Shown: positions 2,480 through 51,667 of the stretch, one piece after another | Layout of the letters: each line of letters starts with the position of its first letter | Numbering within the stretch: position 1 is the first letter of the stretch | NCBI GenBank assembly: GCA_964016885.1 | Contig: OZ024746.1 | Coordinates: forward strand, 60,388,001 to 60,452,000 | DNA length: 64,000 nt | From: Eledone cirrhosa | Lineage: Eukaryota | Reading direction: 5' to 3' | Notes under the pieces: model-generated | Seen by the model: the letters and a program-made list of their open reading frames with translations, nothing else | What the model was told of the DNA's origin: nothing | The model's database searches: none | Program-made: the position numbers and the translations under genes

Positions 2480-2685
2480 AGTTCATCTAAATCCAATCGC
2501 AGCCACATTACCGTTGAGTTTGAAGAGACAAAGGAGAGCGACCCGGAGAGTGGTGATGGATGTGATGGGTGTAATGATCCTGGAGGTTGTGGCAGCCATC
2601 AACAGAACATCAGCTACACCGAGTGTGACAGATGTAATTGCTTTTGCAGTGAAGGAAACAATGGGAATGCATCTAAAAAACTGAG
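2480..2685 (+). CDS. BRIP1: FANCJ exon ([16 protein letters not shown]...[18 protein letters not shown]); acceptor position uncertain
   Basis: Open frame ending at donor AG|GTAAAT, phase 2 matching the next exon; weak AAG acceptor. Confidence 0.7.
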
Positions 2686-4128
2686 GTAAATTTGGGCCTT
2701 TTCTATATTTTGATCTACTTTATGCTTGTTCATCACTACTGCTGTTATTTTCTCATCTTTTTTGTTCAGTTCAACATTCTGAGCTCAACTTTCACCACTT
2801 CTGCTTGTTTTACTTGGTCTTCCGCTTCCCTGGTTTCCTTCCACTTGGATCTCCTGTTACCGTCACCCACTAATCATCATCTATACACATTACATACCCA
2901 TACCATCTCAGTTTTCTTGCTTGCTCATCACATCGTGTTTGTCTTAAACCCAATTTTTTTCTCAACTCATCTGTGCTGCATGTTTAATTATATATTTCTA
3001 GCCTTCACATTCAGTGCCCATATCTCACTACCATGCAGCATTGTACTACATATGCTGACATCATATAGTCTACCCTTTGCTCAACACCACACTACATACA
3101 ATATACAATATTACATTATGTACACAAACATATAATCTCCCTTTTACTCAGAGAGAGAACCTCTTTGTTGTCAGTCTTTTCTCATTCTCTTTTACCCTGT
3201 TATTTCAGAGTTCCCAAGATCTTCTTTGGTACACGAACACACAAGCAAATCAAACAGATTGTTGCAGAACTAAAAGAAACCCACTACAAAGATGTGAGGT
3301 ATGTGTTCTTAGAGAAATGTGTAGTGTATGTATGTCTGTGGGGTGTTGGTAGCTGTTATTATTTAGCCCCACGTATACTCTGATTGAGCAGGCTTGTGAT
3401 CAAAGGTATTCCAGCAATGACCATCTCATTTTTTAATCCTTTTCTTAACATATTTCTAATGAAATACATTGTAAATGTGTTTCATTTAATTTTGAAAATG
3501 ATAAAAAAAAATTGAGGAATTTGTTAAAATAACTTTCTCATTGTCTAAAAAGTATTACTTGACTAAAGGCTCTTACATAAAATTATGATGGAAGGCTTTT
3601 ATTATAAGTATGAATACTTTAAAATATAGCAGTTAGGGGGTAGTTTCAGGGGTGGGGGAGTATCAACAAGGTTAAGGATGTGTAGGATTACATTATCTAA
3701 CATGTCACATTATTATATTAAATATCAAGGTGTGTGCAACTATATATTCATAAATGGGAGATGTTAGTAAAATAAACTAAGAAGAATTAATGATACTCAC
3801 TCCAAATTCCCTTACTGCAGTTTCATAGTGTAAGACATCTTAACCAGCCAAGACATCTAACATTGTGAGAAGTCGATAATCATCAGGGAGCTTCTCATGC
3901 AATAAGAGAAATATTTTTTCATGTGGCTGCAATATATGTGTGTTCCAAACAAAAAACATCATGTGCATGATGGCTAGGATGAAAAACACAACAGGTGCAC
4001 GGGTAACCAGTTAAAAGGAGTGCTAGAAATAGCTCACTAACTAGCCTGTCAGTTTAATTCAACCACAGGAGTATAAAATAATTATCAGAGAACCCATGCA
4101 AGTGTGGAAAGCAGACGTAAAAATGATG

Positions 4129-4159
<31 letters not shown>

Positions 4160-7100
4160 GAATGACTTCACTTATAGTTCTAAACAATTTGATTTTATTT
4201 TATATTATGATTTTACAATTTGGTTTTACTAGATCTACAAAACCAAATTATAAAATTAAATTAAATAGTTTAGAACTACAAGTGAAGTCATTCTTTTCCT
4301 TTTTTTAAATATACCTAACTGTACCAAGGATTTCGCACATTTTCCAATATATATATATATATGAAATATCCAACAGTCACAGAGGTAGATCAGAGTATTA
4401 TGTGTTTGTAAATGGAAGACATGAGTGTGTATATATATATATATATATATATGAGAGCTGACCTCAAATTGCTGAAGCTCACGGAGGAGATGACGAAGGA
4501 CCGTGATGAATGGAGAGATGCTGTGCTGAATAGGACCCGTCCCACCCTTGCAAGCAGGGAAAAGCGGATGTAAAATGATGATGATATGTATATATATATA
4601 TATATCCAAACTTAACCTCCCTATTTCAGAATGTGTATCCTATCAAGTCGAGAGAACCTATGTATTAATAGTGAAGTCAGGCAAGCAGCATCTATCAATG
4701 AGGCCTGTAAAGACAAGATTGAGGTGGGTCATATTTAAATTTTTTTTTCCTTTAAGTTAATTACATGTTATAATTTGTTTTTAAGTGTGTTACCTATTGC
4801 ACCATCCAGTAAACATCTTTATTTTTTTTAACAATGTGTCTATTCTGACATTCTGTTGTACAGTACCAGAATTGTAGCTATGTTAACAATGTGTCTCTTC
4901 TTTCATTCTGTTGTACAGTACCAGAATTGTATCCACCTTAATAATGTGTCTATTCTGACATTCTGTTGTACAGTACCAGAATTGTAGCTATGTTAACAAT
5001 GTGTCTCTTCTTTCATTCTGTTGTACAGTACCAGAATTGTATCCACCTTAACAATGTGTCTATTCTGACATTCTGTTGTACAGTACCAGAATTGTATCCA
5101 CCTTAATAATGTGTCTATTCTGACATTCTGTTGTACAGTACCAGAATTGTATCCACCTTAATAATGTGTCTATTCTGACATTCTGTTGTACAGTATCAGA
5201 ATTGTATCCACCTTAATAATGTGTCTATTCTTTCATTCTGTTGTGCAGTACCAGAATTGTAGCCGCCTTAATGATGTGTCTATTCTTTCATTCTGTTGTG
5301 CAGTACCAGAATTGTAGCCGCCTTAATGATGTGTCTATTCTTTCATTCTGTTGTACAGTATCAGAATTGTAGCTATGTTAATAATATGTCTATTCTTTCA
5401 TTCTGTTGTGCAGTATCAGAATTGTAGCTACCTTAATAATATGTCTATTCTTTCATTCTGTTGTACAGTACCAGAATTGTAGCTACCTTAACAATGTGAA
5501 GAGCTTTTGTACCCAAGAAGATATAAAGGGTCATGGTTTAACAGAAGCATGGGACATAGAAGATCTTGTGGAAGTATGTCAGGGCAAAAAGGTAAGTCAA
5601 CTGATAATTCATATCCTTCTACTATTTCAACACGTATTGGGGTAAATTCAAAAGTTGCAGGTTCAACCTTTGGCTCTTTCTTTTTAATGTTGTTATTTTG
5701 CCTCAGGTCAGTCCTACTCTTGTAGGCCAAGGATCTGAGATTCCAGTCGTGACCATCCTGTCCTTTATTCTGACGGTGTATCTAGGATTACTTCTGTGTG
5801 CATCCAATTTAGAATAAGTACAGCATATCCTTGCACGTTGTACGAGGTGGCTAAAAAGGTTGGCACCAGGAAGGGTAATAGGCCATAAAACATTGCCTCA
5901 CAAAGGACCTCCATAATGTATATGAAATTTGTCATGGTGCCTACTAAGCTAACTCCTTGCTTTAGCAGGAAAAATGGCTTTAAAACATTTGCTACTATAT
6001 TCTATTCCTTTTCAATAGTAGCCCAGCAATTCCAAGTATTAAGAAAAACATATGCAAGTTTAGCTGGCCTTTTACCAAGTTACATTTATAGAAGGTTTAT
6101 TGGGTGTTTTAATGATAGCAGCCCCAGTCCTATCATGAAAACCAATGTGAAATAAAACATCTTGCTCAGTAACACAACATATAGTCAGGTCCAGAAATTG
6201 AACCCAGAATCTTATGGTTGTAAATCTAACACTCTAACCACTAGGTTACATGCCTTCAACAAATATTAACCCTTTAATATTTAAACCGACCATATCCAGT
6301 CAGAATATTCTCACCTCTCTCTCTTCAAACCAGACGTAACTGGCCTCTCATACCGATGTTAAGTTATTGTTCTCAAAATAGATATCAAAATCTCATAGAT
6401 TCGATATTATGTTAGATAATTATGTGAGGTAAAGCCTTTACCGTGAAAATACAATAGTAAATATAGAGTATATACGTGAACAGCAAAGCATAAAGGAACT
6501 AAGTGAGAAATTAGGTATAAGAGGGATCAGATGCTGTTTACTCGAGAGAAGACTACGTTGGTAGGATCACGTGATGTACATGAAAGACGACAGCTGTATA
6601 AAAAAGTGCAGGACGATCAAAATTGACGGAAGTTACGGAGTAGGCAGACCCAGAAAAACCTGGGGCGATTTGATAAATTCCGACCTTGCACACTTACACC
6701 TCTCTAAGACAATGTCGCTGGACCGAGATCTTTGGCGCTACGCAGTAATACAGAAAACCCGCCTTGCAAAACCTACAGTCAGTAGGCACCTCTTAATCAA
6801 ATATATACCCCTACTCCCCCCACCAACACCACCCCTTTCTCTGTAAAGTTATGTTGATACCACAACTTCCAGTCCTAAATAAATGAGGTCGTGTAGGTGT
6901 CACGACAAAAAAAAATACACAGTCCACGCTGTAATGTGGCCGTGTAGGTAACACAGTAAAAACCTCCCTGTCCACACTGTAAACGTGGTTGGTGTTAGGA
7001 AGGGCATCCAGCCGTAGAAAACCCTCCAGACAGTCCCATACGAGCGAGACAACCAATCTTGCCTCAAGTGGGACAATTCCCATCCAAACCCATGCTAGCG

Positions 7101-10100
7101 TGGAAGATAGACGTTAAACGATGATGATGATGAGAGTAATGTAAATGCTAAAGAGTTAAGGTGAGGGTGAGCTCTCACATAATAGCTTTATTTTTGTTGT
7201 TTTCATATTTTTCAGTTATATTTGTAATAATAATCTTTGTTTTTTTGTTTCTTCTCTTTTTCTTTGCTACTCATTACAGGTGAGAGCCTGTCCCTATTTC
7301 CTCACAAGATCACTAATGAAGGTGTCAGATATAATATTTTGCCCCTACAACTATCTATTGGACCCATCTATACGCCATATCGTAAGTTGAAAAGATACGC
7401 ACTTTATTATTATTATGCCTTTCATCCTTACGGGGTCGATAAAATAAAGTACCAGTAATACACTGGGTAATTTGCTGGCCTTGTGCCAAAAGTAGAAACA
7501 ATTATTATTCTAAGTATCGGTAAAGAGTCTGACGCCATGTTTTGCAGAAGAGAGTTACCTTTATTGTCTGAGTTCAACTTTGCCTTTCATCCTTACGGAT
7601 GCAGTAATACACTGGGATAATTGCTGGCCTTGTGCCAAATGTAGAAACAATTATTATTATTATTCTAAGGGCGGGCTATTGGCAGAATCGGTAGAGTGCA
7701 GGATACCCTGCTTTGCAACATAGAGTTACGACTCTTTATGTTCTGAATTCAAATCCCCCCAAGGTTAGCTTTGCCTTTCATCCTTACGGAGTCGATAAAA
7801 TAAAGCACTAGTAATTCACTGGGGTTGATTTAATCGACTTTCCCCTCCCCTTCAAATTCTGACCTTGTGCCTTAAGTAGGAACAATTTTTTTTTTTTTTT
7901 TTTGGTTGTCAAAATTGTTAGGACAATGAATTAAATATTATGTGCTGTTTATCTAGTTACATCTTTTTTAATTTGTAACCCTTTTGATATTAAAGTTCTT
8001 CACCTACTTATTCCTGTGAGGATCATGGGACAGAATCATCTCACATGCCTTCCAGAGGATCTTTTAGAAGCAAATTGTCTCCAAATGATCCTGATAGATC
8101 CCTAAATGAGATCAACTGAGCTCATGGATGTAATCCAACCATCTTGTTTGTGGTCAACAGCTAGGTCTCCTGCTGGTTGGCTTTGTCTGTAAAATCTGTC
8201 CAGTGATTATTTCCTTGTCAACCAGAGCTGTAATCTGTTTATGCAGAAAAATAGCAGCTCTACCTAGAGTGACTCCCTAATCTCCGAGCAATGCACCCTA
8301 TCAAGTAATTTTACTCTAAAAACCCTTTAGAGCAACCCCATTTTGGCTGCTTGAATTCTTTTGGTCATGACTCAAGAATCATGGCCACAGGTAAGGGTAG
8401 GCACAAATGATGAATTGAAGATAGCAAGTGTGGCTTTTACACCTACCTCCCTTGTTCTGATGACCAGGAGCATTATTGCACCATTCAGCCTGTTGCCTTC
8501 CATCATTCATGAAAACAGCTCCGAGACATTTGAACTTCTCCACCTGCTTCAGTGTAACTCCAGTCATATGTAAACTGTACTTTGCAGGCTTTCTCAAGAG
8601 AATGAGTGTCCCAGTCTCTGCAGCACTGATTTTCATTCCTGTCCTGTAGCACTTGGCAGTAAACCTAATCAGTACATGTCAGGGGTCACCTTCTGATGAG
8701 TTAAGTAGCACCATGTTGTCTGTAAATATCAGCCAACCGGTCCTACACCCGTCAGTTTTGATATCACTTCCAATCCAGCTGCATATGTTAATCCTGTTCA
8801 TGAAGATTATGAACAGGATACTAAACTGTTTATTTTAAAGTGTTATCATCATCATCATCAACGTTTAACGTCCGTGTTCCACGCTTGCATGGGTTTGGAC
8901 GGGGGTAGTCCCACTTGAGGCAAGAGTGATTGTCTTGCTCGCATAGGACTGTCTGGCAGGTTTTCTACAGTTGGATGCCCTTCCTAACACCAACCACATT
9001 TACAGTGTGGGTCTGGGAGGTTTTTACCGTGTTGCCTACAAGGCCACATTACAGCGTGGACTGTGTGTTTTTTTGTCGTGACACCTACACGATCTCATTT
9101 GTTTCGGCCTGGACGGGGTGGTGTGGATGGGTGGGGGTGGTGGCGGGACGGGGTGTATTTTGTTAGAGATGCCTACTGGCAAGGCGGGTCTTCTCTGTTA
9201 CTGAGTACCGCCAAAGGCCTCGGTCCAGTGACATTGTCTTGGAGAGGTGTAAGTGTGTGAGGTCGGAGTTTATCAGCTCGTCCCAGGTTTTTCTAGGTCT
9301 GCCTATTCCGTGGCTACCGTCTATCTTTATTGCCCTGCACTTTGTTATACAGCTATCGTCTTTCATGCGCATCACGTGTCCATACCAACGTAGCCTTCTC
9401 TCGAGTAAACAACATCTGATCCCTCTTATCTCTAATTTTTTCCTTAGTTCGTTTATGCTTTGCCGTTCACGTATATTACTGTTACACATCCAGCGGAGCA
9501 TGCAAGCTTCGTTCCTCTCTAGTCTGCGTATATCCTCTGCACACAATGCCCAGGTCTCACTGCCATGCAACATTGCTGTTCGTATGCAGGCATCGTACAA
9601 CCTGCCTTTCATTTTTAGGGAGAACCCTTTAGCAGCTAATAGTGGTATAAGTTCTCTGAACTTTTTCCAACCAGTTCTGACTCTAGCTACAGTACTTTCA
9701 GAGCACCCTCCCCCACTGCTGATTTTATCGCCCAGGTAACGGAAGCTGTCCACTATTTCTATAGAACCCTCTGCGCAATTGAAAGAGCTAGTATTTTGTG
9801 GGCACTTGCTGCTACTTATTGCACCAGAACACCGGCCACATGTAAAATCTATGTTCTTAGTTAGCTTACCTGTGATCGCCCAGGTAACGGAAGCTGTCCA
9901 CTATTTCTATAGAACCCTCTGCGCAATTGAAAGAGCTAGTATTTTGTGGGCACTTGCTGCTACTTATTGCACCAGAACACCGGCCACATGTAAAATTTAT
10001 GTTCTTAGTTAGCTTACCTGTGATCCCACTACATCTTTTATGCACCCATACTTTGCATTTAGGACATAAAATGGAGTTTCTACCTACGCCTTTCCTACAC

Positions 10101-13100
10101 ACCGAGCACGACCATTTCCCAGAAGGGACCGCCGCCTTGTTTTCTTTCCTACAAACTAGAACTTTGGTCTTAGCCAGGTTAATTTTAAGTCCTTTTGACT
10201 CTAGGCCGTGCTTCCATGTTTGGAATTTCTTCTCTAGCTCGGCCATTGATTCCGCTATGAGTGTCAGGTCGTCTGCGTATAGGAGTTCCCATGGGCAGCC
10301 TGTCTTGAACTCCTCTGTTATAGCCTGAAGGGCAATAATAAATAGTAGGGGGCTGAGAACAGAGTCCTGATGGACGCCAACTTTTACGCTAAACTCTTCA
10401 CTATATTCGTTGTTAATTCTAACCTGTTATATTTATCTAAAACCTTTCCATTATGGTTTTATGTAAGTACCATTGTTAAGTTATTTCCAAAACATTCCAT
10501 TTGCTTATCCAAGTAATCTTTTCATACGACACCACTTATATATAAAGCCTGTTAGTTTTTTACGCAAACTTGAAGTACGCAAAATCGCTTTAACGCCTCT
10601 TGAAAAAATATTATTAAATATTCACTTTACGCGAATAACACGTGTGGTTTTTTAATTTTTTTTATCAATCAGATATAATGTAACATTAGAATTGACAAAG
10701 GAAATCATCAGAAATAATAATATAGTATATATATTAGTTCATTTTTATTCAATTGTTTCTCTCTCTAGACTTGATTTATGTGCCGTGTTCTATGAACACA
10801 TCTTCGCGTAAAAAGCAAACAAACTGTATATTGTATATAACTCGTACCTGCATAGTATCTAGTCATATACTCAGTGTTCTTATGTAGTATGTCTTTTTGT
10901 TTACAGATGGAGATTAATTTAAAAGGCAACGTTGTGATACTTGATGAAGGACACAATGTGGAAGACTCTTGTCGTGAAACCATCAGCTGCAAAATAACAG
11001 TTTCCTTATTATCAAAGTTAATCACAGAACTAAAAAGTTTAAGTATGTTGTTTATTTGACTTGGTTATCTTACATGTTGTCATTGTACTTATTATGGTCC
11101 CTCTCCTTGTATCTACTGTTAATAAAGTTATAGAAGCAATTTTCATCAATAGCAAATGTGAATCACATGAAGCTGATTGGTAGTAACTGTACCAGTCTGC
11201 ATATCACCATCACCATTACACCCCAATTTCTTTTTAAAATGGGGTCCTATCTCCAAAATATAAGATAAAATGTAAATTGTTGTTTTGTTTTGTCTTATTT
11301 TACTTCCATTTTCACTCCTGTATTTCTAACTTTGTAACTGGCTTTACTAAAACATTGTACTGTAGCTTTCTTGAAACATTGTACTGTAGCTTTCCTGAAA
11401 CATTGTACTGTCGCTTTCCTGAAACATTGTATTGTAGCTTTCCTGAAACATTGTATTGTAGCTTTCCTGAAACATTGTACTGTAGCTTTCCTGAAACATT
11501 GTACTGTCGCTTTCCTGAAACATTGTACTGTAGCTTTCCTGAAACATTGTACTGTAGCTTTCCTAAAACACAATAGTTGCATTTGTAGGACATTTTAGTG
11601 ACTTTCTCAACCCTTTAGCATTTAAACCGGCTGTATCCAACCAGAATTCTCTCATCTCCTGTTTAAATTGGCCGTAACCGGCTGCTCATACTGATTTTAA
11701 AGTATTGTTCTCAAAATAGATAATATCGAAATCTCATAGATTCGATATTATAATGCGAAAATACAATAGTATATATAGAGTAATATAAATGCTAAAAGGT
11801 TACAGCATATTAATAGCGTTCATAAAACTATATTGACTTTCTTCAAACATTGTAGTGGCTTTCTTAAAACAATATATTGATGATATTTATGTCTCTACTG
11901 TTTCTATTCTTTTCCTGATGTGATGATGTTGATGATGATGACCTGATTAGCTGAGAAAAGCCACAGACCAGGCTACTTTCAGTATTTATTAGATTTGGTG
12001 AGTTTGGTGATGATGTAATAATAATTTTCAATAATTGCCGCTACATAACTTATTGATTTACAAACGGAATAAGTGATATTCGGTTTCTTTACCAAATTGT
12101 AACAAAACTGATGGATTGTATATATGCCATGTGTACCCCAGTTTTTAGAAAAGACACACCATATTCTTCTGTGTTATAAGAGGTGACTAAAAAGGTTGGC
12201 ATCAGGAAGGGATCTTGCCCGTGTTCAGTCGTTTGCGTGTTAAAATTATGTGCATTTTGAGCAATGCCTATTAAACGATGTCAGTTTTTTTAAAGAGGCT
12301 TTGAGCGAAGTTGATAAAAATAAAAATGTACTAGAAATCTACAATTTTTTTTGCAAATAATTACAACTTCACAACGGGTAAATAAAAAAAAATTAAAAAT
12401 CAACACATTTTATGGTAGAAAGAACTAAAAATTCACAATGTTTATAATTGAAAAAATTAATTCTAGAAAGAATAAAAAATTCAAAAAGTAATGTAGGCAA
12501 GGTGTCTAAAATAATCTGTAATTTCTAAATCTTCTCTTGATTCAACGGTGCTTTTAATTCTTTGTTCTAAGTTTACGTATGTCCTCTTCTTTTGTGCAGG
12601 TTCTCCTGAACAAATTCCAAAATATCTCATCCGTTGTAGGCTCACTTCCCTTCTTAACCCTTTAGCATTTAAACCGGCCATATCTGGCCAGATTTATCTC
12701 ACCTCTTTCTGTTGAAACCAGTTGTAACTGGCTGCTCATACCTACATTAAGGTATTGTTCTCTGTAGTTTGATATTATGTGAAATAATTATGTAAGATAA
12801 AGCCTTTACTGTGAAAATACAATAGTAAATATAGAATAATGTAAATGCTAAAGGGTTAAAGCCTTGATTAAGAGATTAATCTTCACTGAAATTACCGTTT
12901 GCTCTTAATGTTTCGCTTAAAATAACTTTGTTAAAAATTAACTTTGCTCAAAATAACTTCACTCAAAATGAATGGAACCGATTTTGGCTGTAGCACATTG
13001 TTCCAACCTATACCAACATGGAAAAGTGGACATCAAAATGATGGGGATGATGTGTGCATGTACACTTAGAATTTCTCATTCATCCTCTTCACTCTCACCC

Positions 13101-15094
13101 ACTATTCTCTCTATCTTATACATCAGGTTTACAGGCTGCGTTCCTTCATCCATAAGCGGTCAGCTGACCTCCAACAGAATGATTTCAACCAAGCCAGTCA
13201 CATCTGGTCAGGCTTTGAGGCTGTGGCTGAACTGGTTAATTTGAAGATTGGACCAAAGGACATTAGTGGCTTATCAGTAAGTATAGTAACATTGGTCTTA
13301 TTAACACAATAGTCAAGTTAGTATAGTAACATTGGTCCAGTTACTATAGTAACATTGGTCAAGTTAGTATAGTGGCATTCGTCCAGTTACTATAATAACA
13401 TTCATCAGTATAACAATTTTCAGATAGTATAATATAATTTTCAGTTAGTAATAACAATTATCAGTTCCTCCAAAATTCTGGTCTTGTAACTATGTCATAA
13501 ACAATTGTTTGGAGTGGCAGTGTTGTTAGAACACCAGAGAAATGTTTAGCAGTATTTATTCTGGCTCTTTATGTTCTGAGTTCAAATTTCATCATGATCG
13601 ACTCTGCTTATCATTCTTATGGGGGTCGATAAAATAAAGCATCAGTTAAGTCCTGGGGTTGATATATTCAACTTTCTTTTTTCCCTAAATTAGAAATCAT
13701 TATTAAGGGTAGTAAGTCTGGTAGATTGGTAGTATCAGTAGAGTGTGGGACAACATGCTTTGCAGCATAGAGTTATGGCCCTTAACATTCTGAGTTCAAA
13801 TCTCGCCAAGGTTAGCTTTGCCTTTCATCCTTCCTTATGGGGTCGATAAAGTAAAGCACCAGTCACTCACTGGGAGCAATTTAATCGACTTTCCCCTCTC
13901 CCCAAAATTTCTGGCCATGTGCCTAAATCAGAAACCATTTTTATAAGGGCTGTAAATTGGTAGAGCTTTGCAATATTTAGTTATATCTCTTTGTATTCTG
14001 TATTCAAATACCACCAAGGTCAATTTGATCTTTCATCTTCCTGGGTTGATAAAATATAGTACCAATCATGTACTACAGTTGATGTCATTGACTTTCCTCT
14101 CCCCACAGATTGTTGGCCGTGTGCCTAAATTAGAAACCATTATTATTAGTTTTATTTATCTTTTTTCTTCTTTTCATTTTCACACAACCGCTACTACTTC
14201 TACCATCAATACTACTACCACCTCCACCAATACCAACAACACCATCATCACCACAAACAACAACAATAACACCATCACTACCAATATCACTACCCACATT
14301 AAAAGAATTCCCTTAAATCCATACGAGAAGAGGCAGAAATCCGAAGAAAGAGGCACCAAAGTTACCCTAAATTGAGCAGTACTGCGTTTCAGATGTTTGA
14401 TCAGCTGTTGGTCTCTCTCACCTACTTCTATTTGAACGACTTGAAGAATGCAGAAGACTTTCGGTAAATACTTGTCAGTTTTTATTATCTTTGTTACTTG
14501 TTATTGTTGTTATAGTGAAGGCGCGTGGCTGAGTGGCTAGAGAATTGGATTCGCAATGGTGAGGTTGTGAGTTCAATTCCCGGACTGGGCGATGTGTTGA
14601 ACAAGACACTTTATTTCATGTTGTTCCTTCTGGCTGGATTTGCAATTGGTAGATAGTATTTCCTCAGTCCAATTTGATGAGGTCTGGGATCTTGTCGATT
14701 GTTGTTATTTAGCTCCCTGTTGAGACCTGGCATGGGTTGGACAGGGGTTACTCATAGCTGCTGTCCTCCTTGGAGTGGGTGGTATGGCTCACTCAATCCA
14801 TTCCATTTTTTGACATGACTGGATGCCCTTCTTAATGCCAACCACTTTACAGAGTGTACTGAGTGCATTTTATTGTAGCCCCAGGAGTAGAGAGGTTGTC
14901 AGATTATTGATGTAACTGTTTGATTGTCAGCCACTAAGAGAGTACAAGACTCCCAGGCCTATCATGAAAAGCAAGGTAAACTGAAGCATATTGCTCAAGG
15001 ACACAGCATACCACTTGATCATGAATTCAATACCCTATCCACTAGAACAGAGAAAGTAAGTGAAAGTAACATGGTTGATTGGTGTTGATTAGAC

Positions 15095-15131
<37 letters not shown>

Positions 15132-17391
15132 ACGTGTAATGTTTTCAACATCTGGTCTTTAAAAAAATTCTACCTCAATTGATAATTTTTTGTATATTTT
15201 TAGGATGGTTCTTCTCAGAAGTGTCTCATTTGGACCAAAAAAAGGTCCGGTAAGAAAATTTCTTCTTCTTTGTTCACTTATTCCTGAGAGGGTTGTTGGG
15301 GCAGAGTCTCTTTCTTTCTCTTTCAGCTGAAGCAGAAACTGCTGAGCTGAACAAGCTCCACTCTGTTTCAACATCTTCAGTTTACTCAGGGAGTTCTCTG
15401 AATTTGTTTGGAATAGTATCTGGTCCTGACTTCCTTATCCACTAAAGCTTCCCACTTTATCCTGTAGGTTGCCCTGGACCTTCCAGTTTTGTGGGCTTCT
15501 TTGGCTTTAGATAGTCTCAAGTTGCAGATAACTAGATGGTGATCAGTTGACAGCTCAGCTCCTCTCTATTCAGGTGTGGTGCCAGAAATGACTGCACAGG
15601 CGAGAAGGAAAAGAAAAATTAATTTTTATTTTAAACCAGCCGTATCCATCCCAAATTCTCTTGCCTCTTTCTGTTCAAACTAGCTGTAACTGGCCACTCA
15701 TACTTATGTTAAGCTATTGTTCTCAAAATAAATATAAAAATCATAGATTCAATATTATGTGAGGTAAAGCCTTTACAATCAAAATACAATAGTAAAGTTA
15801 GACTAATGTAAATGCTAAAGGGTTAATAAGGATTTTTAATCTTGGTACAAGGCCAGTAATTTCAGAGGGAGGAGAAAAACCAATCATATCAACCCCAGTA
15901 CTTTACTTTATTAACCTGAAAGAGGAAAGGCAAAATTGTCCTTAATGAGAATTGGACTCAGAACAAATACTTCACAGCATTTCCTCTGACACTCTAACAA
16001 TTCTGTCAGTCCGTCATCGCCAATGTTTATGTTAACAATAATAGTTATATAATGTGGAAAGTGATACAAAATGGACGATAAGATGAAGATAACGAAAAAT
16101 TTAGTTACCTGATAATCTTTTTTTTTTGGTTTTGTTGCTCTTGTTTCTTTTGTCCTAATATTTCAGGGCTTAAAATTCCCTTCTTCAGTGTATAAGGAAC
16201 TCAGAGAAAACTGTTCCAGTTTCTTCTCTTTGGAATTTAATTTACAACATTTTATTAATAATAGTTATAATATAGAAGCAGACATATGGTTAAGGAATTC
16301 ACTTTGCAATAATGTGGTTCCAGGCTCAATCCTAATGTGAGGGAACTTTGTTTTCTACTATGGGTTTATCAGGACATTGTGAGTGAAATTTGGTGGGCAG
16401 AAATTCTTCAGAAGCCTGTCAAATATGTATCTGTATATGTTTATAAGTTTAACACAACACTACCATTAGCTTTGTTGCTTGATAAATAGGAGTTGATAAA
16501 GTATGTACCAGACTGAAATAAATTCTGGGGTTGATATGCTTGACTAAAGCCCTTCAGTGCTGTGTCCCAGCATAACCACAGTTCATTGGCTAAAACCAGC
16601 TACTGTTTGGAACATATCTTAATAGAGGTTCTTACATAAAATTATAGTGGAAGGTTTTTAGATAAGTATAAATGTATGAGCATAAAGAAGTTTCTTCAAC
16701 CTATCTAGTTTCAAATCAGGACACCCATCCAACCAAGGAACAGAGACATAAAATGATAATGATAATGATTAGAATAAAAAGTTTTGTATCAAAAGGGTTA
16801 AGGCTCTATATAATTTTCCCAAATTTTCTTTTCCAACCATCATTATAATTCTGTTGTATTTTTTGTTATATCTTTCAGAGATCAAGATCAAAGTCAGATA
16901 ACCCAGGTGAGTCTAAATCTTCTGGTGAATTCTACCAGTTTTTTTGTGGGCTTTGGGTTTCTGTAATCTGGAATTAAACAACATTTTATACATCATCATC
17001 GTTTAGCATCCATCTTCCACGCTAGCATGGGTTTGTCCCACTTGAGGCAAGATTGGTCAAGTGACCATGTCTCGCTCGTACAGAACTGGTAGGATTTCTA
17101 TAGCTGGATGCCCTTCTTAACACTAACAGCATTCACAGTGTGGACTGGGTGCTTTTTGTCGTGTCACCTACACAACCACTTCACAGTGGACAGAAATGGG
17201 AGGATGAGTAGGGGGTATGGGTTGGGGTGTGTATTGGTTTAAGAGGTACCTACTGACTGTAGGTTTAAGTTTGTATATATCTGCAGCAGCAGTGAAAATA
17301 GATGTTAAATACTAATGATAATGTTGATGTGTGGAAAATGGACATTAAATGAGGATGATGTTGGTGTGGAAAACATGTTAATTGATGACGA

Positions 17392-17434
<43 letters not shown>

Positions 17435-17842
17435 GTGTGTCAATCACTATAAAGAAGAGTTTAGAAAATCAGGTAAAGTACACACACACATATAAACTAG
17501 TTCAAACTGAGTGAGCCTGGTAACCATATCATCATCATCATCATCATCATTTTACGTCCGCTTTTCTCTGCTTGCAAGGGTGGGACGGGAACTGATTCTG
17601 GCTTGATTTCTACAGCTGGATGCCCTTCCTAACACCAACCTCATTTACAGTGAGTGCTGGGTGCTTTTTTGCCATGGCACCTCCATGACCACTTTGCAGT
17701 GGAATGATAGAGACCCCAGTCCTATCATCTCATTTCTACAGCTGAGTAAACGGGAGCAATGTGAAATAAAGTGTCTTGCTCAAGGAAACAATACATCACC
17801 CGGTCTGAGAATTGATACCTTGTCCATAAAGAGTGAACACAC

Positions 17843-17878
<36 letters not shown>

Positions 17879-20800
17879 TCATCATCATCATCATTTAACA
17901 TTCACATTCCCTGCTAACAGGGGTGGATCAGGTCATATATGCTTGTGGTCAGGTCTTCATTATCACAGCATAGCGCTAGCCCTCACGGCCCTTTGTCATC
18001 ACTGATGTGAGGTTTAATTTCTTAAGGTTAGTCTTCACTATCTTGTCCCAAGTCTTCCTGGCTCTGCCTCTTCCACAGGTCCCAGACACTGGGATTTCTC
18101 TGCATTTCTTTATACAGCTGCCATCTTCCATACGCATCACATGTTCAAAGCAATGTTATCTTCTCTCTTGCAGACTACATCTAATTCTTCTAATGCCGAG
18201 TTTATCTTTCTGTTTGCTTATGCTTCATCGTTCATGCACACTAACATTACACAGCCATTAAAGCATACTCACTTCATTTCTTTCCAGCCTTTGCAGATCC
18301 TCTGCAGTCAAGCCCGCTTATTTTTTAACCCTTTAGCGTTTAAACCGGCTGTATCCGGCCAGAACTTTCTCACCTCTTTCTGTTCAAACTGGCCACTCAT
18401 ATTGATATTAAGGTATTGTTCTCAAAATAAATAATATCAAAATCTCATAGATTCGATATTATGTGGGATAAAGGCTTTACCAGGAAAATAAAATAATATA
18501 TATAGAGTAATGTAAATGCTAAAGGGTTAAAGTATGGTATTTATATACCAGGTTGAAACTGGCTAAGAAGAAGATTATTTATATTATTGATCTCATTTTT
18601 GTCAGACTGCTAAGTTATGGCACACAAACGCAGACATGTGTACACACACACACACATACATATATACATGTGACAGGGGTTCTGAAGTGTCCATCTAGTA
18701 AACTCCATTCATAGGTCATTGATCAACCCCAGTTAGAATCTTGACTTGGTATCAGGAAAAATTTTATATTGAAATTTATCTATATGCTGGCATCAAAATT
18801 GCGACATGTGTATCTGATAAAATGTTCAACTGCTGTTTCTAGCACATTTTTCAGACATTCCTAATCATTCACTTATATACAAACTCCCTACCTCTCTTAA
18901 CTCATATACAGTCACACACACTCACACTCATGCACTCATAGTATTATTTACCCAGTTTTGATCATTCTAATTATCATTACACATGTTCTACTAGAGTGTA
19001 ACTGGAGGCTTCAGATGAAAATAATTCCTGTGTATATAGATGCGTATGAAGGATGACAGCTGCATAAAAAGGTGCAGAGCACTAGAAGTCGATGGAAACC
19101 GCGGAGTGGGGAGACCCAAGAAGACCTGGGATGAGGTGATAAAAGCCGACCTTACCCATTTACACCTTTCAAAGGCGATGACACACGACCGTGACCTCTG
19201 GCGTCACGCAGTAATACAGAAGACCCGACCCCCCCCCCCCCCCCCCCCCCACAGGTACAAGCCGAAGCTGAAGCATTTAGACAATATGCACCCACACCCT
19301 CCCACTGCAAAGTGGTCGTGGAGGTGCCACGGCAAAAATAACCCAGCCTACACTGTAAAGTGGACATGTAGGTGCCACGGAAAAAAAGCACCCAGCACTC
19401 ACTGTAAATGAGGTTGGTGTTAGGAAGGGCATCCAGCTGTAGAAATCAAGCCAGAATCAGTTCCCATATGAGCAAGACAAGGTCAGCCGACCGGACACTG
19501 CCCACAACAGGACAACCCGTCTAACCCATGCTAGCGTGGAAGAACGGACGTAAAACGGTGTTGATGATGATGATAGAGGGTTAACCCTTTAGCATTTAAA
19601 CCGGCCATGTCCGGCCAGGATTCTCACACCTCTTTCTGCTCAAACCGGCTGTAACTGGCCACTCATAGAAATGTTAACGTATTGCTCTCAAAACAAATAA
19701 TATCAAAATCCCATAGATTCAATATTATGTGAGGTAAAGCCTTTACCTTGAAAATATAATAGTAAATATAAAGTGATGCAAATGCTGAAGGGTTAAACAT
19801 GTGTATGAGACAGTGGCGGTCAGTAATGAGGGTTATAATGGAGATGATTATAAGTTATTTTTTCAATTTTTATTAAAAGGTCCCAGGGAAGAACTAACTT
19901 TGCACATCTGGTGTCTGAACCCTGGTGTGGTAAGTACTTTCACCATATACTTTCCCTATATATTTTTCCATAAGTCACCTAAATCTGTATATAAAGTCTG
20001 TTTGTGTGTGTATGAGTATATATATATATATATTTATTTATTATTAAGGCTAAAAAGTGAGTTTTGTTACTCTCGAGTTTCACCAGTTTATCACAGGGTC
20101 ATCAGACTCACTTTTTAGCCTTAATAATAATGTATATTAAAACTCTACTTCAGTATTGAGTACTCCTTTCTCTCAGCCATCAACCACATACGGATATATA
20201 TATATATATATATACTAAAAGGAACACCAGAATGGAACATTGTTCAGGGCGGCGATGGCAGATCAATAACTCACCGACAACATGTAGGGCCTCTAGGCAT
20301 GTACCTATATTGAAAGCCAAAAGGTACAACGAGAATCGCCCTTTTTCCATTCTTTACTGAGCTTGTCCAATCACCAAGACATAATGTGTGTGTGTAGACA
20401 GTAACTGAATGGAAGACCACTGTATATGTTGTATACATGTGTCTCTGTGTTTATATGTCATGTCCCTTTGACCTGTAACATAACAGTCCGACAAATAGAG
20501 GTTGATAAAATAAGTACTAAACTGAAGGGAAGACCCTTCAGTTGTGTCAAGGGCATAACAACCTCCATAAGGTTGGTGTTTTACATGATAAACATACCCA
20601 GTACACACTGTAAAGTGGTTGGTGATAGGAAGAGCATTTAACCATAGAAATCTTGCCAAACATAGGGTTGAGAGGACTCTCAGTTGTGTCAAAGGCATGA
20701 CAACTTCTCCTAAGCACTCGATGGAACATGAGACCATACATAAGCGAGACACAGATCCCTGGCTTACTTGGTAGATCAGTGACTCAGCTTCAGTAGTGAC

Positions 20801-23800
20801 TTGGTCAATATAGACCGTCCAGCCCTTGCTAGCAGGAAAAGTGGACATTAAAATGACAATGATGATGACGTGTGTGTATTTTAGTTTGCAGCCACATATC
20901 AATCCAGTATATGACTGCTACTATTTTATGAACCGTAAATTCTGAATGATCTCAGGCATCATATGTTCTTGGTTGCTTTTGGTTTTGTTGTCTTTTGTGT
21001 GTGTTTCTTTCTTATTGTTGTTTTTCTCTTCTAATCTAGAACCTTCTGTATTCCACAGACATTTAGTGACTTTTCCGTTACCCGGAGTGTAATCATCACC
21101 AGTGGTACTCTCTCACCTATGGTGTCGTTCCAGTCAGAGTTGGAGTTTCCCTTCTCTATTCGAATGGAAGCAAGACATGTTATTCCACCTTCTCAGGTAA
21201 ATTTCATTATAATAAGGTTTGCCTTGAAACAATGTGTGTGTCCCCCTTCAAAAGTCTCCCTTGACCATCACTCTCCTCCCATGTTAATTCTTGATCACTT
21301 TGGCATTGGTATAAAGTGGTCTACTCTTAAAGTCCCCCTTGACCATCACTTTGGTCTTATTCACTTGATCATGCCTGTCTTGGAACAAGTTGTACACATC
21401 GTTCAGTAAAAAGTATTTGCTACGCTCTGAAATGTGGCTAACAATTGAAAGATAAACTATACAGGATTAAGAGGACTTTTTGGTCACATCCAGGACATGA
21501 CAATCTCTCTAGTGTTGGTGTCATGATAAAATACCCCCAGTGGTTGGTGTTTAAGAAGGGTATCCAGTTTTAGAAACCATTCCAAAAGGGCCAAAATGGC
21601 TTTTCAGCCATGTCAAGGACATTACAATCTCTCTAGTGCTATTATATTTTCACGGTAAACACTTTATCTCATAATTATCTCACATAATATCAAATCTACA
21701 ATATTTTGAAATTATTTATTTTTAGAACAATACCTTAACATAAGTATGAGCAGCTAGTTATGGCTGGTTTGAACAGAAAGAGGTGAGAGAAATCTAGCTG
21801 GATATGGCCGGTTTAAATGCTAAAGGATTAAATGAGAAGGACATTTGGAAGGGCATCCAGCTGTAAGAATCATGCTATACTGGAATTATTGTATTACAGA
21901 ATATGAGTAGAATTTGAGACAGTAGGGTGTGGTTTGTTGAATATTTGGCTATTATCTCTAACAGTTTGAGTGGCCATCTAAAGCAACAATACCAAAACAT
22001 TGACCCCAGGCACATACAAAAATAAATAAGTAAATAAATATACCAGTAAACAGAATATAAAATAATTAGACAATAAGAACTAATTATATATAAATCAGAA
22101 AGCTGTATAGGGTAATTATATTTTATTGTATTATCATCAACATTTAAGATCTTTTTTCCCTTCTAGCAAGAGTTGGATAGGACTTGACAGACCAAGTCAG
22201 TACTCAGGCAAGACTATTGATCTCTAAGATGGGCTGAGAACCTGCATCTCACTTAACCATTTAGTATTTACACTATTCTATATTTACTATTGTATTTTCA
22301 CAGTAAATGCTTTATCTCACATAATATCGAAGCTATGAGATTTTGATGTTATTTATTTTGAGAACAATACCTTAACATCAGTATGGGTGGCCAGTTACAG
22401 CTAGTTTAAACAGAAAGAGGTGAAAGAATTCTGGCTGGATGCGGCTGGTTTAAATGCTAAAAGGTTAATATGGTCCCGCGCTCAATCAATTGCATTTTAT
22501 CATAACACCGGCACTAGGGAGGTTGTCATGTCTTTGATACAACTGAAGGGTCCTTCCAACTCTTTGCAAGCTTTCTATGGTTGGATGTATCACCAATCAC
22601 TTTACAGCATGTACTAGGTGTGTTTATCATGTAGATCACTAAGACTAGGGGAATTGTCGTGCCATTGACACAACTGAAAGGTCTTCTCAACCTTTTTCTG
22701 GCATATTAGTTGGTGTATTTTCATTTCTTATACAAATGTTAGGTTTTGACCCAAAAGTTTGGCGATCCCTGATCTAGAGGCTGGTTTGTTGTCAGAGGTC
22801 AACAATATTGAGGTAAAGGGAGGAAATCTATTTTTAGTTCCTACCTTCGTTATATATTGGTTTGTTTATATTTCAGGTTTTGGTGAGGGCCATTGGTTGT
22901 GGACCTTCTGGAAGATCACTTGTGGCCACCTTCAAACATACTGAAACCTTCACCTTCCAAGATGATCTTGGTGATATTGTTTGTGATGTCTGTATGGTAA
23001 GTTCTAAAGACTGGATTTTTTTTCAATTGTCTTTGTTGTGGTGGTTGGAAGCTCTGATTGTGATGGGGGGGGGGGGGGGGGGGGGTATTCGACCAGACAT
23101 TCCTCTTCTGCTAACTTCTCAACAATTTTTTCAAGTTCCACTTGGAAAGAAAGATGGGGTTGGGGGGTGGAAAGGCAAGTGTTACCCCCTTCCTCTGTTA
23201 AAAGGTGGGTGTATACAATGAGAATGGACCTACTCTAAGCATGCGTGTAGGCTAGAAGGAATATCGTTAAGAGGGGCATTTGTCTATGGTGCCTTTCGCA
23301 ATCAGAGTGATCTCAGATCTATGGAGCTCTTAAGTAGCTCTGAATGGTGCTCTTTCTAATGAGGAAATCTGTTAAATTTGCTGTTATTTGTCCCCTATTT
23401 TCTCTCTCTCTCTTTGCACACGTATATGTAAATCACCACTGTCCCTGTATAAAGTGTACCCTTGGTATTTGCAGTCCCGGTTATTCACAGAATTTTCCTT
23501 AGAACCTAACTAATAGTTGTTCATGGAAACCATCGCATATTCACAGAATCGTAAATATCTTCCGTGATGTTTTTATGGCTTTTTTCATAGCAATATATAT
23601 TTTTACGCTTTTTTTTATCGCTAAATTATTAATAACAATTTACCATATATACCAGCCTATATTTTTGACATTATATTTTGACGTTGATATGCATTTTTAT
23701 GGACCATGTCCAATATTCACAGGTGCTATAGCAACGTAACCCCCACAAATACTGGGGGACAACTGTATTATATTGTCCTCAATGTTTCCATCCCAAATTC

Positions 23801-26800
23801 CCAATGAAGATTAAATTTTGTTTTTGTTTTATTTTACCAGAGAACACCTAATGGTGTGTTGTGTTTCTTGTCTTCCTACACTATGCTAGATAAACTTTGC
23901 AAAAGATGGCAGGTATGTACTTCACAATTGACACTGACTCTTGTGGTCCTCTTTTAAAATTATTATTATTATTATTAAATTGTTGACCTTGTGCCTAAAT
24001 TAGAAATCATTATTATTATAAGGTTATAATTAGGGCGGTGGATTGGCAGGCATAGAGTTACAGCTCTTTGCGTTCTAAGTTCAAATCCCATTGAGGTTAG
24101 CTTTGCCTTTCATCCTTACGGGGTCATTGAAATAAAGTACCAGATTTAATCAACTTTCTCCTCCCCCAAAATTGCTGGCCTTGTGCCTAAATCTGAAACC
24201 ATATATTAATATAATAACCTTGTGTATTTGTCTGTCACACACTAGAGATGACTGAAGAAGGAAGGGGTGATTACGTCGACTGAGGAAGGAAGGGGTGATT
24301 ACGTCGACTGCGGAAGGAAGGGGTGATTACGTCGACTGAGGAAGGAAGGGGTGATTAAGTCAACTGACGAAGGAAGGGGTGTCTAATTCACACACACATT
24401 TATGTGATGACTGAGGATGGTAGGGGTGAGAAACTACAGAAGTCCAGCATTCTAAGATTCGTCACAGCTGTGTGTTTGTATGTTTGTATCACTTGTGTAA
24501 GTGAATACGAAGGAAACAAACAAACAAATATCTCTTTTTTATATTATGTATAGATATTACAATTAACTGTCATTTGTGATGGCACAGAGCCAGCTAGTTA
24601 TTATTATAAGGACGGTGGATTACCAGAATCATTAAGGCATCAGACGATATGCTTTGTGGTATTTGTTCCAGTTCTCTAAGTACTGTGTTCAAATTTTAAT
24701 GAGGTCAACTTTGCCTTTCATCCTTAGGGTTCATTAAAATAAAGTACCAGTCAAATACTGAGGTTGATTTAATTGACTTAGCCCTCCTCCTTCAAATTGC
24801 TGGCCTTGTGCCTAGATTAGAAACTATTATGGTTGTTGGTAAGTTAGAAAAAGAGGGATATTATCCTCCTTGACCCTTTGCAAACCCACCTAAATTAGAA
24901 TGGTAAGGTCAATATGTATATAGTGGGACTGGAGGTGTATCACTATGTGGCTTATATTGTTGTTTATATTTATATTTGCTAACCTTTTTCAAGGCCACTG
25001 GATTATGGGAGAAAATTTGGAAACGGAAAATAATTGTGATGGAACCCCGGACTGGGAAAAAAGAAGACTTTACAGCAGCATGGCAAAAATTCAGAACATA
25101 TGCTCAACGAGAAATAACAGGTGAATTGCTACTATGTCGCTGTTCTCTAGTTTTACATTCTCATAAATGTATATATACACACACACAGGGTTTCCCCCCC
25201 CAAAAAAATGTGTACACACTTTGATTAGAATGCTATTGAAGTGTTTATACATTTTTTGGGACACCCTGTATATATGTATCATCATGATCATCGATTAACG
25301 TCCATCTGCCACACTAGCATGGGTTAGACGGGTCCTATTTTAAGGCAAGTTGTGTCGAGTGACCGTGTCTCGCTCAAATAGGGGTGTTTCTGGCTGGTTT
25401 TCTACGGCCTGATGCCCTTCCTAACACCAACCACATTTACAGTGTAGGTTGGGTGCTTTTTACCGTGTCTTTTACACGTCTCCTTTATATATATATATAT
25501 ATATACATTACCATCCAGTTTCTCAGAAGTATAAAATGGACGATCAAGATATCCTATTGTTAAGGCCGACTCAGGTCAGAGAGCATTTAAAACTCAAAAT
25601 TATAAAAAAGTCAAGGATATGAAATTATTATTTATTCTTTCATATCTTTCACTTTTTTATAATTTTTAATTATATATATATATATATCATCATCATCATC
25701 ACCATCTTTGGAAAATGGACGTTAAACGAAGATGATGATGATGATGATGATGATATATATATATATAATTAAAAATTATAAAAAAGTGAAGGATATGAAA
25801 GAATAAATAATAATTTCATATCCTTGACTTTTTTATAATTTTGAGTTTTAAATGCTCTCTGACCTGAGGATATCTTGATCGTCCATTTTATACTTCTGAG
25901 AAACTGGATGGTAATGTACATTGAACTTCTCTCATCCTACCAAAGAAAATAGTAAAGTGCTACACTATAATCACATATTCTATATATATCACCATCATCA
26001 TTACTGTTTAACATCTATTTCTATGCTTGTGATGGGCTGTCACAATATGAGGCTTGGTTTTCTATAGTTGGATGCCCTTCCTAACACCAATCACCTTACA
26101 GGGCAGATTGGGTACTTTTTGTCATGTCGCCAGCATGACCACTGTATAGGGGGGATTGATTGCTTTTTGTCACACCAACAGTACAACGTCTTTATAGGGT
26201 GAACTAGGTGCTTTTGTTGTCAAACCACCAGTACGTCTTTATAGGGTGAACAAGGTGCTTTTGTTGTGACACTACACAACCACTTTACAGGGTGGACAAG
26301 GTGCTATTGTTGTAACACTAGCACAACCACCTTAGGGTGGACTACGTGCTTTTGTTTTAGCGTGAGCACTACTACAGAATGGTACAGGATGCGATGGGTG
26401 CCTTTGTCACGGCACTAGTATGTCTTAAAAGGGTGGAATAGGTGCTTCTGTTGTGGCACCAGCACTGTGGGAGATCATGCACATGTCATGGGGATGTGTG
26501 TATATATTTATATATATAAATGCCGGTGCCCCCTCATAACCTCAGCCTATCGCCTGGAACATGTAATAGAGTAATATCATCATCATCAACATCATGGTTG
26601 AGCATTTATTTTCCATGCTTGCATGGATTAAACAGGCTACCATATTCTGAGACTAGGCAGTTCAGATGTCTGTGTGTCATTCATATATTCCATTCTAGGC
26701 CTTCATGGCTGGATGCCCTTCCTAATGCCAACCATTTCATGACGTGGTGTGAGAGAGGGAAGTGGGCTGCAATAGTGGTGGTGGGGGCATCCCACTTACT

Positions 26801-27640
26801 AAGTTGGTATGGTTGACTATGGGAATTGGGGACCTGATAGGGAAGAAGGAGTTAGTAGCATGTGGTTATGCCCTGCTGAAGGCACATCTGTCTCTATGTT
26901 GGCCCAAATTGGGTAAGAATGGAGGAATCAGAGATGTGGTTGGGAGGAGAAGACTGGAGTTGTGTTTCGTTCTGCTTGGGTAATAGGAGGTGGCAAACAC
27001 CACCTCAATTACCTTACAACCAACTTAACCATCACTGGCATTGTCATCTCAAGAACCATTACCATAGTCATCACTACCTCCTCAACCATCACCACCACTT
27101 CAACCACCATCACCATAACCATCATTACCTCCACCACCTCAATCATCACCACTGCCACCTCAAGAACCATGACCATAACCATCACCACCTCAATCACAAC
27201 CCCCACCATCTTAACCACCGCCTCCACCACCACAATTCACTCATCTATTTTCATCACCATCATCAACAACAATAACAGCTACAACTTATGTCCCTTCCTT
27301 TTCCTTTCAGATTCTCTGGAGAATGAAGAAGAAATCACACAAGATGGCGCTCTGTTCTTGGCAGTATGTCGAGGGAAGATCAGTGAAGGGATAGATTTTG
27401 CAGACAACAGTGCTAGGGCTGTCATAACGGTATTGTTTTTTTTCTCTCTCTCTCTTGGTATTTTACGTTCTTTAACTCTAATCTTCATAATACCAGGACA
27501 ATTTGTTAAGCCTTCATTACGTTTATTGATTGGTGACGCGTGTTTCACTATTGATCAGCTCAGGGTTCAATCTGTATTGATCTGGCCTGACTCTGGAATC
27601 AAAAGCTTGTCAGACCTCTGTTGTAGTAATGACAGACTCC

Positions 27641-27684
<44 letters not shown>

Positions 27685-30600: not shown

Positions 30601-31580
30601 TCTGCAGAAATGACTGGGGAGCACTTCTATTGGTCGATTCTCGATTCCTACAAGGTAACAGATACCACAAAGGTGAGTGTTTTGTTGTTTTAGTAGTTGT
30701 GTTTTCTAGTTGTTATTATATTATTCTAGCTGCTATTGGAAATTTATAAAACTAAGAAATGCAATATGCAGTTACACACATAAAGACATATATATATGGC
30801 TGACTGAATACGCACATTCTTTTTTTCCTTGTTTTTTCCCAGTTCCTTCCTCTTATCACTCTTTACTTTCTATGTATCTTCTATTTCTAAGTCTATCTTC
30901 TGATGAAGGACTAGTGTCCAAAACGTTAAGACTCTCATCCTACTATTTCAAACATTCATCATCATCATCATCATCATCATCATCGTTTAACGTCCATCTT
31001 CCACACTTGCATGGGTTTGGACGGGAATTGTCCCACTTGAGGCAAGATTGGTTGTCTTGCTCGTATAGGACTGTCTGGCGGGTTTTCTACGGCTGGATGT
31101 CCTTCCTAACACCAACCACGTTTACAGTGTGAACTGGGAGATTTTTACCGTGTTACCTACACGGCCACATTACAGCGTGGACTGTGTTTTTTGTCGTGAC
31201 ACCTACACGACCTCATTTGTTTCGGACTGGATGTTGTGGTACCAACATAACTTTACATTGAAAGGGGTGGTGTGGATGGAGTGGGGGTAGTTAGACGGGG
31301 GGGGGGGGGGGGGGTTAGAGGTGCCTACTGACTAGGTTTCGCTTTGTACTTAGGCATGGAGGGTCTTCTGTATTACTGTGTAGCGCCAAAGATCTCGGTC
31401 CAGTGACATTGTCTTGGAGAGGTGTAAGTGTGTGAGGTCGGAATTTATCAAGTCGTCCCAGCTTTTTCTGGGTCTGCCTACTCCGTGGCTACCGTCTATT
31501 TTTATCGCCCTAAACTAATATGTTTCTTCCATGTACTGTGTTATTTATTTTGTTATTTCTGTTTACCTTTTACATACATA

Positions 31581-31612
<32 letters not shown>

Positions 31613-51562: not shown

Positions 51563-51605
<43 letters not shown>

Positions 51606-51628
51606 ATTGCCTTCTCTATTTATTTTTG

Positions 51629-51667
<39 letters not shown>

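What the first reader, a model, noticed from the sequence alone, without database searches (positions are those of the whole stretch)
4828..5498. Twelve stacked 3' splice sites: a minisatellite made of the FANCJ intron/exon junction at an Fe-S cysteine
Seen: the 55-bp unit is pyrimidine tract + (T/G)(A/G)CAG + the first ~29 nt of the exon ([10 protein letters not shown], holding the third Fe-S ligand Cys). All 12 units keep the CAG. Only the last (5468) gives an open frame: 55 is not a multiple of 3, and the nearest in-frame site (5303) hits TAG. The spliceosome must skip 11 near-identical decoys. Inference: array length could tune productive versus NMD-bound FANCJ mRNA, and unequal exchange could rewrite codons around the Cys.
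Basis: partly seen in the sequence, partly recalled or inferred. Interest (0 to 1): 0.75.

Follow-up and report, generated by a model that had tools for sequence, protein, structure and literature searches.

The report
Splice-acceptor "mirage" repeat in octopod FANCJ
A 55-base piece spanning the end of an intron and the start of the next exon of an octopus-type DNA-repair gene is repeated 12 times in a row, but the one spliced transcript found joins at the last, true copy, so it is likely a tolerated repeat of a kind already described in lancelets and humans rather than a control switch.

Summary
In detail: 12 head-to-tail 55-bp units (4828-5498) each carry a branch-like motif, pyrimidine tract, CAG and the first 29 nt of the FANCJ exon holding the Cys that aligns to human C310. 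All 11 upstream acceptors give premature stops. The array is real (DNA contigs, a second sample, a second species with about 4 units). The one spliced contig found joins 4723 to 5469, the last acceptor; contigs hide rare forms, so a minor leak is not excluded. The type is known: 'mirage' minisatellites of amphioxus, with donor-side human cases (F7, CBS). It is not rare here: 3 of 203 exon pieces examined have one, against about 3.5 expected by chance, including the neighbouring gene TTI1. Retention of all AGs is what chance gives (P about 0.5), and the repeated part of the exon is not more diverged than the rest, so neither NMD tuning nor codon rewriting is supported. Best reading: a neutral array seeded by an 11-nt direct repeat, skipped likely by exon definition. 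The scan noted this type before on other DNA, including many loci of this genome.

The parts
4630..4723 (+). Upstream FANCJ exon (holds the first two Fe-S Cys by alignment); donor GAG|GTGGGT
   Evidence: tblastn with P0001/P0002; spliced contig of X1 covers 4628-4721 and leaves at the donor
4724..5468 (+). Intron as spliced (745 nt; 140 nt if only one unit were present)
   Evidence: X1 contig joins the upstream exon tail to 5469 with 0 other letters; lengths
4828..5498 (+). 55-bp x 12.2 minisatellite spanning the intron/exon junction ('mirage')
   Evidence: TRF; unit table; single locus in G000; go-back-55 joints in X3 and X5
4828..4838 (+). 11-nt direct repeat, left copy (intron); likely seed of the first duplication; includes the yTnAy branch-like motif with A at -33
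   Evidence: sequence; branch motif scan; no difference listed here for species B
4862..5413 (+). Eleven decoy CAG acceptors (G at 4863, 4918, 4973, 5028, 5083, 5138, 5193, 5248, 5303, 5358, 5413), each followed by 29 nt of exon-like sequence and a premature stop
5433..5437 (+). Predicted branch motif (A at 5436, -33) of the used acceptor, supplied by the exon-like part of unit 11
   Evidence: motif scan; use as branch point is inferred
5443..5468 (+). Pyrimidine tract and CAG of the used acceptor (unit 12)
5469..5591 (+). True exon, 123 nt, 41 aa, same length as in Octopus and Argonauta orthologues; strong donor AAG|GTAAGT at 5592
5478..5480 (+). Cys codon aligned to human FANCJ C310 (third Fe-S ligand)
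   Evidence: PDB 9ej9 alignment via P0001; 105 of 105 aligned homologues have Cys; ligand list
5488..5498 (+). 11-nt direct repeat, right copy (inside the exon); end of the array
   Evidence: sequence
2495..38862 (+). Host gene, FANCJ/BRIP1 orthologue (first three exon hits lie upstream of the window)

Best explanation
This is a minisatellite that copies the intron/exon junction of an octopod FANCJ gene 12 times; the one spliced contig joins at the last acceptor, and the 11 upstream copies are likely neutral passengers left in the intron. [quoted passage not shown] Tolerance (shown from sequence): the last unit is always followed by the intact exon, so any copy number leaves the gene whole. 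Choice of the last site (inferred): exon definition; the acceptor nearest to the strong donor at 5592 and to the unique 93 nt of exon wins (123-nt exon against 178-728 nt), since the decoys have the same local signal but no good donor behind them. Any leak to a decoy carries a premature stop and would likely be degraded (inferred).
For: Spliced 4615-nt contig of X1, depth 17.8, runs previous exon > 4630-4723 > 5469-5591 > next exon with 0 other letters on unit 12. Local signal cannot explain the choice: unit 10 equals unit 12 over -26..+2, 12 of 12 units have a yTnAy A at -33, and predicted accessibility of site 12 is not higher. Array = 12 x 55 + 11 nt, the signature of origin at short flanking repeats (mechanism as reviewed in PMC6947457). 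Base rate: 3 of 203 exon pieces have a junction-spanning array (this one, TTI1, one kinase), about 3.5 expected from array density. AG retention P = 0.47-0.58 by chance. Copy number differs between species (12 against about 4). Amphioxus mirages are reported not to disturb splicing.
Against: RNA evidence is one assembled contig from one run whose kind is not on record; contigs drop rare forms and NMD would hide decoy products. The array has persisted across about 7-9% sequence divergence with YAG kept in every unit seen in both species, which neutrality allows but does not require. A 181-nt unspliced piece across decoy 1 is present at depth 2.6. Exon definition itself was not tested, and a plain 5'-to-3' scan would favour the first AG. 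The base rate rests on HMM/tblastn exon pieces of two genes and 60 kinase loci, not on a whole annotation.
Confidence: 0.8

Rival explanations
1. Regulated unproductive splicing: decoy acceptors divert part of FANCJ pre-mRNA to nonsense-mediated decay, and array length tunes the dose.
For: 11 of 11 decoys give stops more than 50 nt before the exon end; all keep CAG, and the array is shared with a second species; in human IFI6 and CBS two pseudo-donors are used besides the true one (PMC1557585 introduction).
Against: No decoy junction among the X1 records laid (2, 2); AG retention at chance level; such arrays occur at the chance rate in unrelated genes; any frameshifting acceptor copy gives a stop, so the stops need no selection.
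Confidence: 0.08
2. The array acts as a donor pool that rewrites codons next to the Fe-S Cys by unequal exchange or gene conversion.
For: The synonymous +3 letter is T in 5 of 5 species-B contigs and C in 9 of 12 units here including the coding one, so coding copy and decoys exchange or re-duplicate sequence (direction unknown; B's coding unit is inferred from contig overlap). Decoys hold non-synonymous variants at +14 to +28. L at Cys+3 is seen in 0 of 105 homologues.
Against: Cys codon invariant in 12 of 12 units. The repeated 30 nt differ from species B at about 2 letters, the unrepeated 93 nt at 12. N at Cys+5 occurs in 13 of 105 and V at Cys+6 in 86 of 105 homologues, and divergence from Octopus runs through the whole exon.
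Confidence: 0.06
3. Units serve as 27-nt in-frame micro-exons (CAG ... AAT|GTGTCT), adding or swapping a Cys-bearing nonapeptide.
For: Nine units have an in-frame, stop-free 27-nt stretch ending at a GT.
Against: The donors are far from consensus (sequence); the X1 contig has no such insert; units 10 and 11 have lost that GT; orthologue proteins have no insert.
Confidence: 0.03
4. The array is an assembly artefact.
For: None; the exact number 12 is not confirmed by long reads.
Against: Units differ at 13 of 55 columns; go-back-55 joints in X3 at depth 97.6 + 25.9 against 13.1 for the unique flank, about 9-10 junctions for 11 expected (rough, and sample S2 may be the assembly's source); unit 1-to-2 piece in sample S1; array in species B.
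Confidence: 0.02

Closest known systems
Amphioxus 'mirage' minisatellites (Adh3, globins BflGb6/BflGb9, troponin C, PGBD5); PMC3087553 and PMC3902484, passages read; the original Adh3 paper not read
   Same: Tandem copies of intron 3' end + exon 5' start (as BflGb6); unit inside the reported 10-160 bp range; splice signals kept; normal splicing seen; copy number varies.
   Different: Cephalopod rather than cephalochordate; 12 copies against 3-6 in BflGb6; all decoys keep the AG; shared between two species; lies on an Fe-S ligand exon.
Human junction-spanning VNTRs: F7 IVS7 (37 bp, 5-9 copies), IFI6/6-16, CBS IVS13, LMNB2, PDGF; PMC1557585, abstract, introduction and discussion read
   Same: One unit spans the junction, identical pseudo-sites are repeated in the intron, the site next to the intact exon is used; in F7 the pseudo-sites were shown to be functional but outcompeted.
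   Different: Those are donor-side arrays where the first site wins; here it is the acceptor side and the last site wins, against the order of transcription.
Human CBS 844ins68; seen only through PMC1334203 passages (primary paper not held)
   Same: [quoted passage not shown]
   Different: One extra copy, not an array; that it duplicates the intron 7/exon 8 acceptor is recalled, not read here.

Membership tests
Mirage minisatellite | Tandem repeat whose unit spans an exon-intron boundary of the host gene | tested here: met
   26 nt intron + 29 nt exon per unit; exon confirmed by homology and spliced contig
Mirage minisatellite | Locus-specific, derived from the gene itself rather than a dispersed element | tested here: met
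   All 6 matches in G000 lie in this array (the search skips very common words)
Mirage minisatellite | Normal splicing at the authentic site | tested here: met
   One spliced contig, 4723 joined to 5469; minor forms cannot be seen in contigs
Mirage minisatellite | Length instability between haplotypes or individuals | tested here: inconclusive
   About 4 units in species B against 12 here (rough depths); no within-species allele sizes; RAD runs X6 and X7 gave 0 and 3 reads
Mirage minisatellite | Concerted evolution of units | tested here: inconclusive
   Identical neighbours or alternates (1=3, 5=6, 8=9) and a +3 letter fixed in 5 of 5 species-B contigs, but B's array could not be ordered
FANCJ/BRIP1 (XPD-family Fe-S helicase) | Orthology and four Fe-S cysteines | tested here: met
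   Best hits named FANCJ; orthologue P0001 hits human FANCJ 9ej9 at E 5e-193 against 1e-47 for XPD; exon chain; third Cys 105 of 105
Regulated unproductive splicing (AS-NMD) element | Alternative junction creates a premature stop | tested here: met
   11 of 11 decoys
Regulated unproductive splicing (AS-NMD) element | The unproductive junction is used and rises under NMD block | not testable with these tools
   Only assembled contigs of one likely RNA run; no raw RNA reads listed
Regulated unproductive splicing (AS-NMD) element | Conservation of the decoy signal beyond chance | tested here: not met
   P(no variable column in AG) 0.58 with 13 columns, 0.47 with 17; low power

The most novel reading that the evidence does not exclude
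An acceptor-side VNTR, kept across two octopod species with every YAG intact, leaks a length-dependent share of FANCJ pre-mRNA into decay and occasionally converts the coding copy, so that repeat instability feeds back on a helicase that guards against repeat instability.
Probability: 0.07. Interest if true: 0.6.

Novelty: new member of a known kind. Interest (0 to 1): 0.17.

Why it matters
As it stands it is one more mirage, in a genome that has many. Its modest value is as a clean natural test of 3' splice-site choice: 12 near-identical acceptors, one identical to the used site over 28 nt, where the last-transcribed one wins; the tested human model (F7) is donor-side. It also warns annotators and read mappers, since a spliced read fits the first unit almost as well as the last. 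If decoy use under NMD block scaled with allele length, it would be a VNTR dose control on a DNA-repair helicase, which would matter more.

Tried and rejected
Searches translated the acceptor series in the wrong frame; one search is the valid one. PDB search with the 31-residue upstream exon gave only chance hits. The look-up of sequencing runs listed no holder on record as RNA: 'no RNA holder listed'; X1 is treated as a transcript assembly only because its contig is spliced at three junctions. RAD runs: X6 laid 0 reads (no test), X7 3 reads from at most one start. The whole array was never laid in one piece, so no bridging record and no copy count; both lay calls used one-unit stretches. RNA folding showed no accessibility advantage for site 12, rejected as the selector. 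The idea that the conserved Gly after the Cys was overwritten by intron sequence was rejected: Asn stands there in 13 of 105 homologues (121 proteins taken, 15 dropped for lacking anchor motifs and 1 for length). Of 151 kinase exon pieces 19 had a repeat within 15 nt; all 19 were viewed and 1 spans a junction. Paper searches for an acceptor-side or cephalopod case listed none beyond amphioxus; the library lacks most subscription journals and no supplements were read. PMC1914867 is not held. No orthologous intron of Octopus or Argonauta could be fetched, so the pre-array state is not seen.

Full report
Observation. TRF finds 4828-5498, period 55, 12.2 copies, 91% matches, no indels. Twelve CAG sites lie at 4863+55n. 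Each unit is 26 nt of intron end and 29 nt of exon start; 13 of 55 columns vary, none in CAG or in the Cys codon. The array is 12 x 55 + 11 nt: an 11-nt direct repeat stands at 4828-4838 in the intron and at 5488-5498 in the exon. A DNA search of the own genome with 5380-5600 gave 6 matches, all in this array.

Host gene. The long exon at 32470-33780 finds two proteins, named FANCJ of Octopus sinensis and Argonauta hians. These map as an ordered chain of 27 exon hits, with 4630-4723 and 5469-5591 as neighbours and no length difference. The O. sinensis protein matches human FANCJ (PDB 9ej9) at E 5e-193, far above XPD, and its Cys aligns to C310, listed as third of C283-C298-C310-C350 (PMC13255074, one table passage). 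The Cys is present in 105 of 105 aligned homologues. The animal is an octopod by these hits; I did not name it further.

Reading frames. With the right frame, 11 of 11 upstream CAG sites reach a stop 111-652 nt before the exon end; 5468 is open, and so is a non-unit AG at 5474.

Which site is used. Eight runs were listed, none on record as RNA. Run X1 holds a 4615-nt contig at depth 17.8 whose loose ends read the previous exon, which covers 4628-4721, continues on the unit with two letters unlike unit 1 and then into the unique exon, matches 5467-5593 with 0 other letters and goes on into the next exon. It is a spliced transcript that uses the last acceptor. The only other X1 record is a 181-nt unspliced piece from 4733 across decoy 1, depth 2.6. 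Contigs drop rare forms, so this shows the main form only.

Is the array real and how old. X3 shows go-back-55 joints at depth 97.6 plus 25.9 against 13.1 in the unique flank, roughly 9-10 junctions for 11 expected; the 25.9 variant fits the two units with A at +28 (depth is a rough guide, and this sample may be the source of the assembly). Run X5, another species label at about 92.5% identity by word share, also has the array: four contigs over the intron part at single-copy depth, a go-back-55 joint, the same variants at -17/-16 and -4, T at +3 in 5 of 5 contigs, and TAG for CAG in two. So the array predates the split, and its length differs (about 4 against 12).

Why the last site. Unit 10 equals the used site over -26..+2; all 12 have a yTnAy motif with A at -33, supplied in units 2-12 by the exon-like end of the unit before; predicted accessibility of site 12 is not higher than that of the decoys. 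Position must therefore decide. Site 12 gives a 123-nt exon closed by AAG|GTAAGT; decoys give 178-728 nt or must use poor donors. Exon definition is the likeliest selector (inference from established splicing knowledge, not tested); decay of any leak is also inferred, and NMD rules in molluscs were not checked.

Selection on decoys. The chance that both AG columns escape variation is 0.58 with this species' 13 variable columns and 0.47 with the 17 seen in both species: retention is unremarkable, though the test is weak. On codon rewriting: the synonymous +3 letter suggests exchange between coding copy and decoys, direction unknown, but the repeated 30 nt differ from species B at about 2 letters while the unrepeated 93 nt differ at 12, and the residues after the Cys vary across animals.

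Base rate. Among 27 FANCJ, 25 TTI1 and 151 kinase exon pieces (60 loci of 10 kb picked from the short-exon matches, fetched), 3 of 203 have an array across a junction: this one, a 48-bp x 3.7 array at a TTI1 acceptor starting at window 63940, and a decayed 38-bp x 7.9 array at a kinase acceptor in L054. Array density and unit length predict about 3.5. Leaving out the selected case, it is 2 of 202.

Comparison. Tandem repeats across exon-intron boundaries are termed mirages in amphioxus; BflGb6 repeats an intron 3' end plus exon start, 3 or 6 times, without disturbing splicing (PMC3087553, passages; PMC3902484, one passage). Human donor-side cases are F7, 6-16, CBS, LMNB2 and PDGF; F7 pseudo-sites are functional but outcompeted, and in 6-16 and CBS two pseudo-sites are used (PMC1557585, abstract, introduction, discussion). 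CBS 844ins68 is skipped by alternative splicing (PMC1334203, passages). Origin at short flanking repeats is reviewed in PMC6947457 (passages). PMC10078293 and PMC3265369 (passages) show that repeats can change splicing and make introns, but not this layout. Searches listed no cephalopod case; the library is partial and supplements were not read. The term 'mirage' came to me from earlier scan notes, and I then read the two papers; those notes report many such arrays in this genome, which I did not check.

Verdict. Real, correctly described, a new member of a known kind, at the rate chance predicts in this genome. Neutral tolerated repeat 0.8; regulatory dose control 0.08. Interest 0.17.

Noticed in passing
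window 63940-64000 continuing into L009:1-122: Second acceptor-spanning array in the neighbouring gene TTI1: 48 bp x 3.7, two decoys keep CAG, the first has CAA.
   Followed up: partly
L054:2844-3141 (minus strand): Decayed 38-bp x 7.9 array across the acceptor of a kinase exon.
   Followed up: partly
L097:4374-4862: 22-bp x 21 array of pyrimidine tract + TAG that ends about 35 nt before a real kinase acceptor without spanning it.
   Followed up: no
window 5499-5591: Against species B this exon part has 12 substitutions in 10 codons, 9 changing the residue, versus 3 substitutions (1 residue) in the 94-nt upstream exon (Fisher P 0.016, chosen after seeing it): fast change in the Fe-S domain tail, outside the repeat.
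   Followed up: partly
window 5469-5474: A second AG 6 nt inside the exon would give an open frame two residues shorter, with the Cys kept; the X1 contig does not use it.
   Followed up: partly
window 49880-63085: TTI1 (TELO2-interacting protein 1) orthologue downstream on the same strand, continuing past the window.
   Followed up: yes
window 54034-57013, 34044-34994, 35589-35932: Large intronic minisatellites (48 bp x 62.6; 81 bp x 11.8 and x 4.4 sharing one unit); none overlaps a mapped exon.
   Followed up: partly
window 9163-10426 (minus), 6565-6846, 19040-19411: Fragments resembling a LINE reverse transcriptase in FANCJ introns, with a 148-bp internal duplication at 9727-10025 (family not tested).
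   Followed up: no
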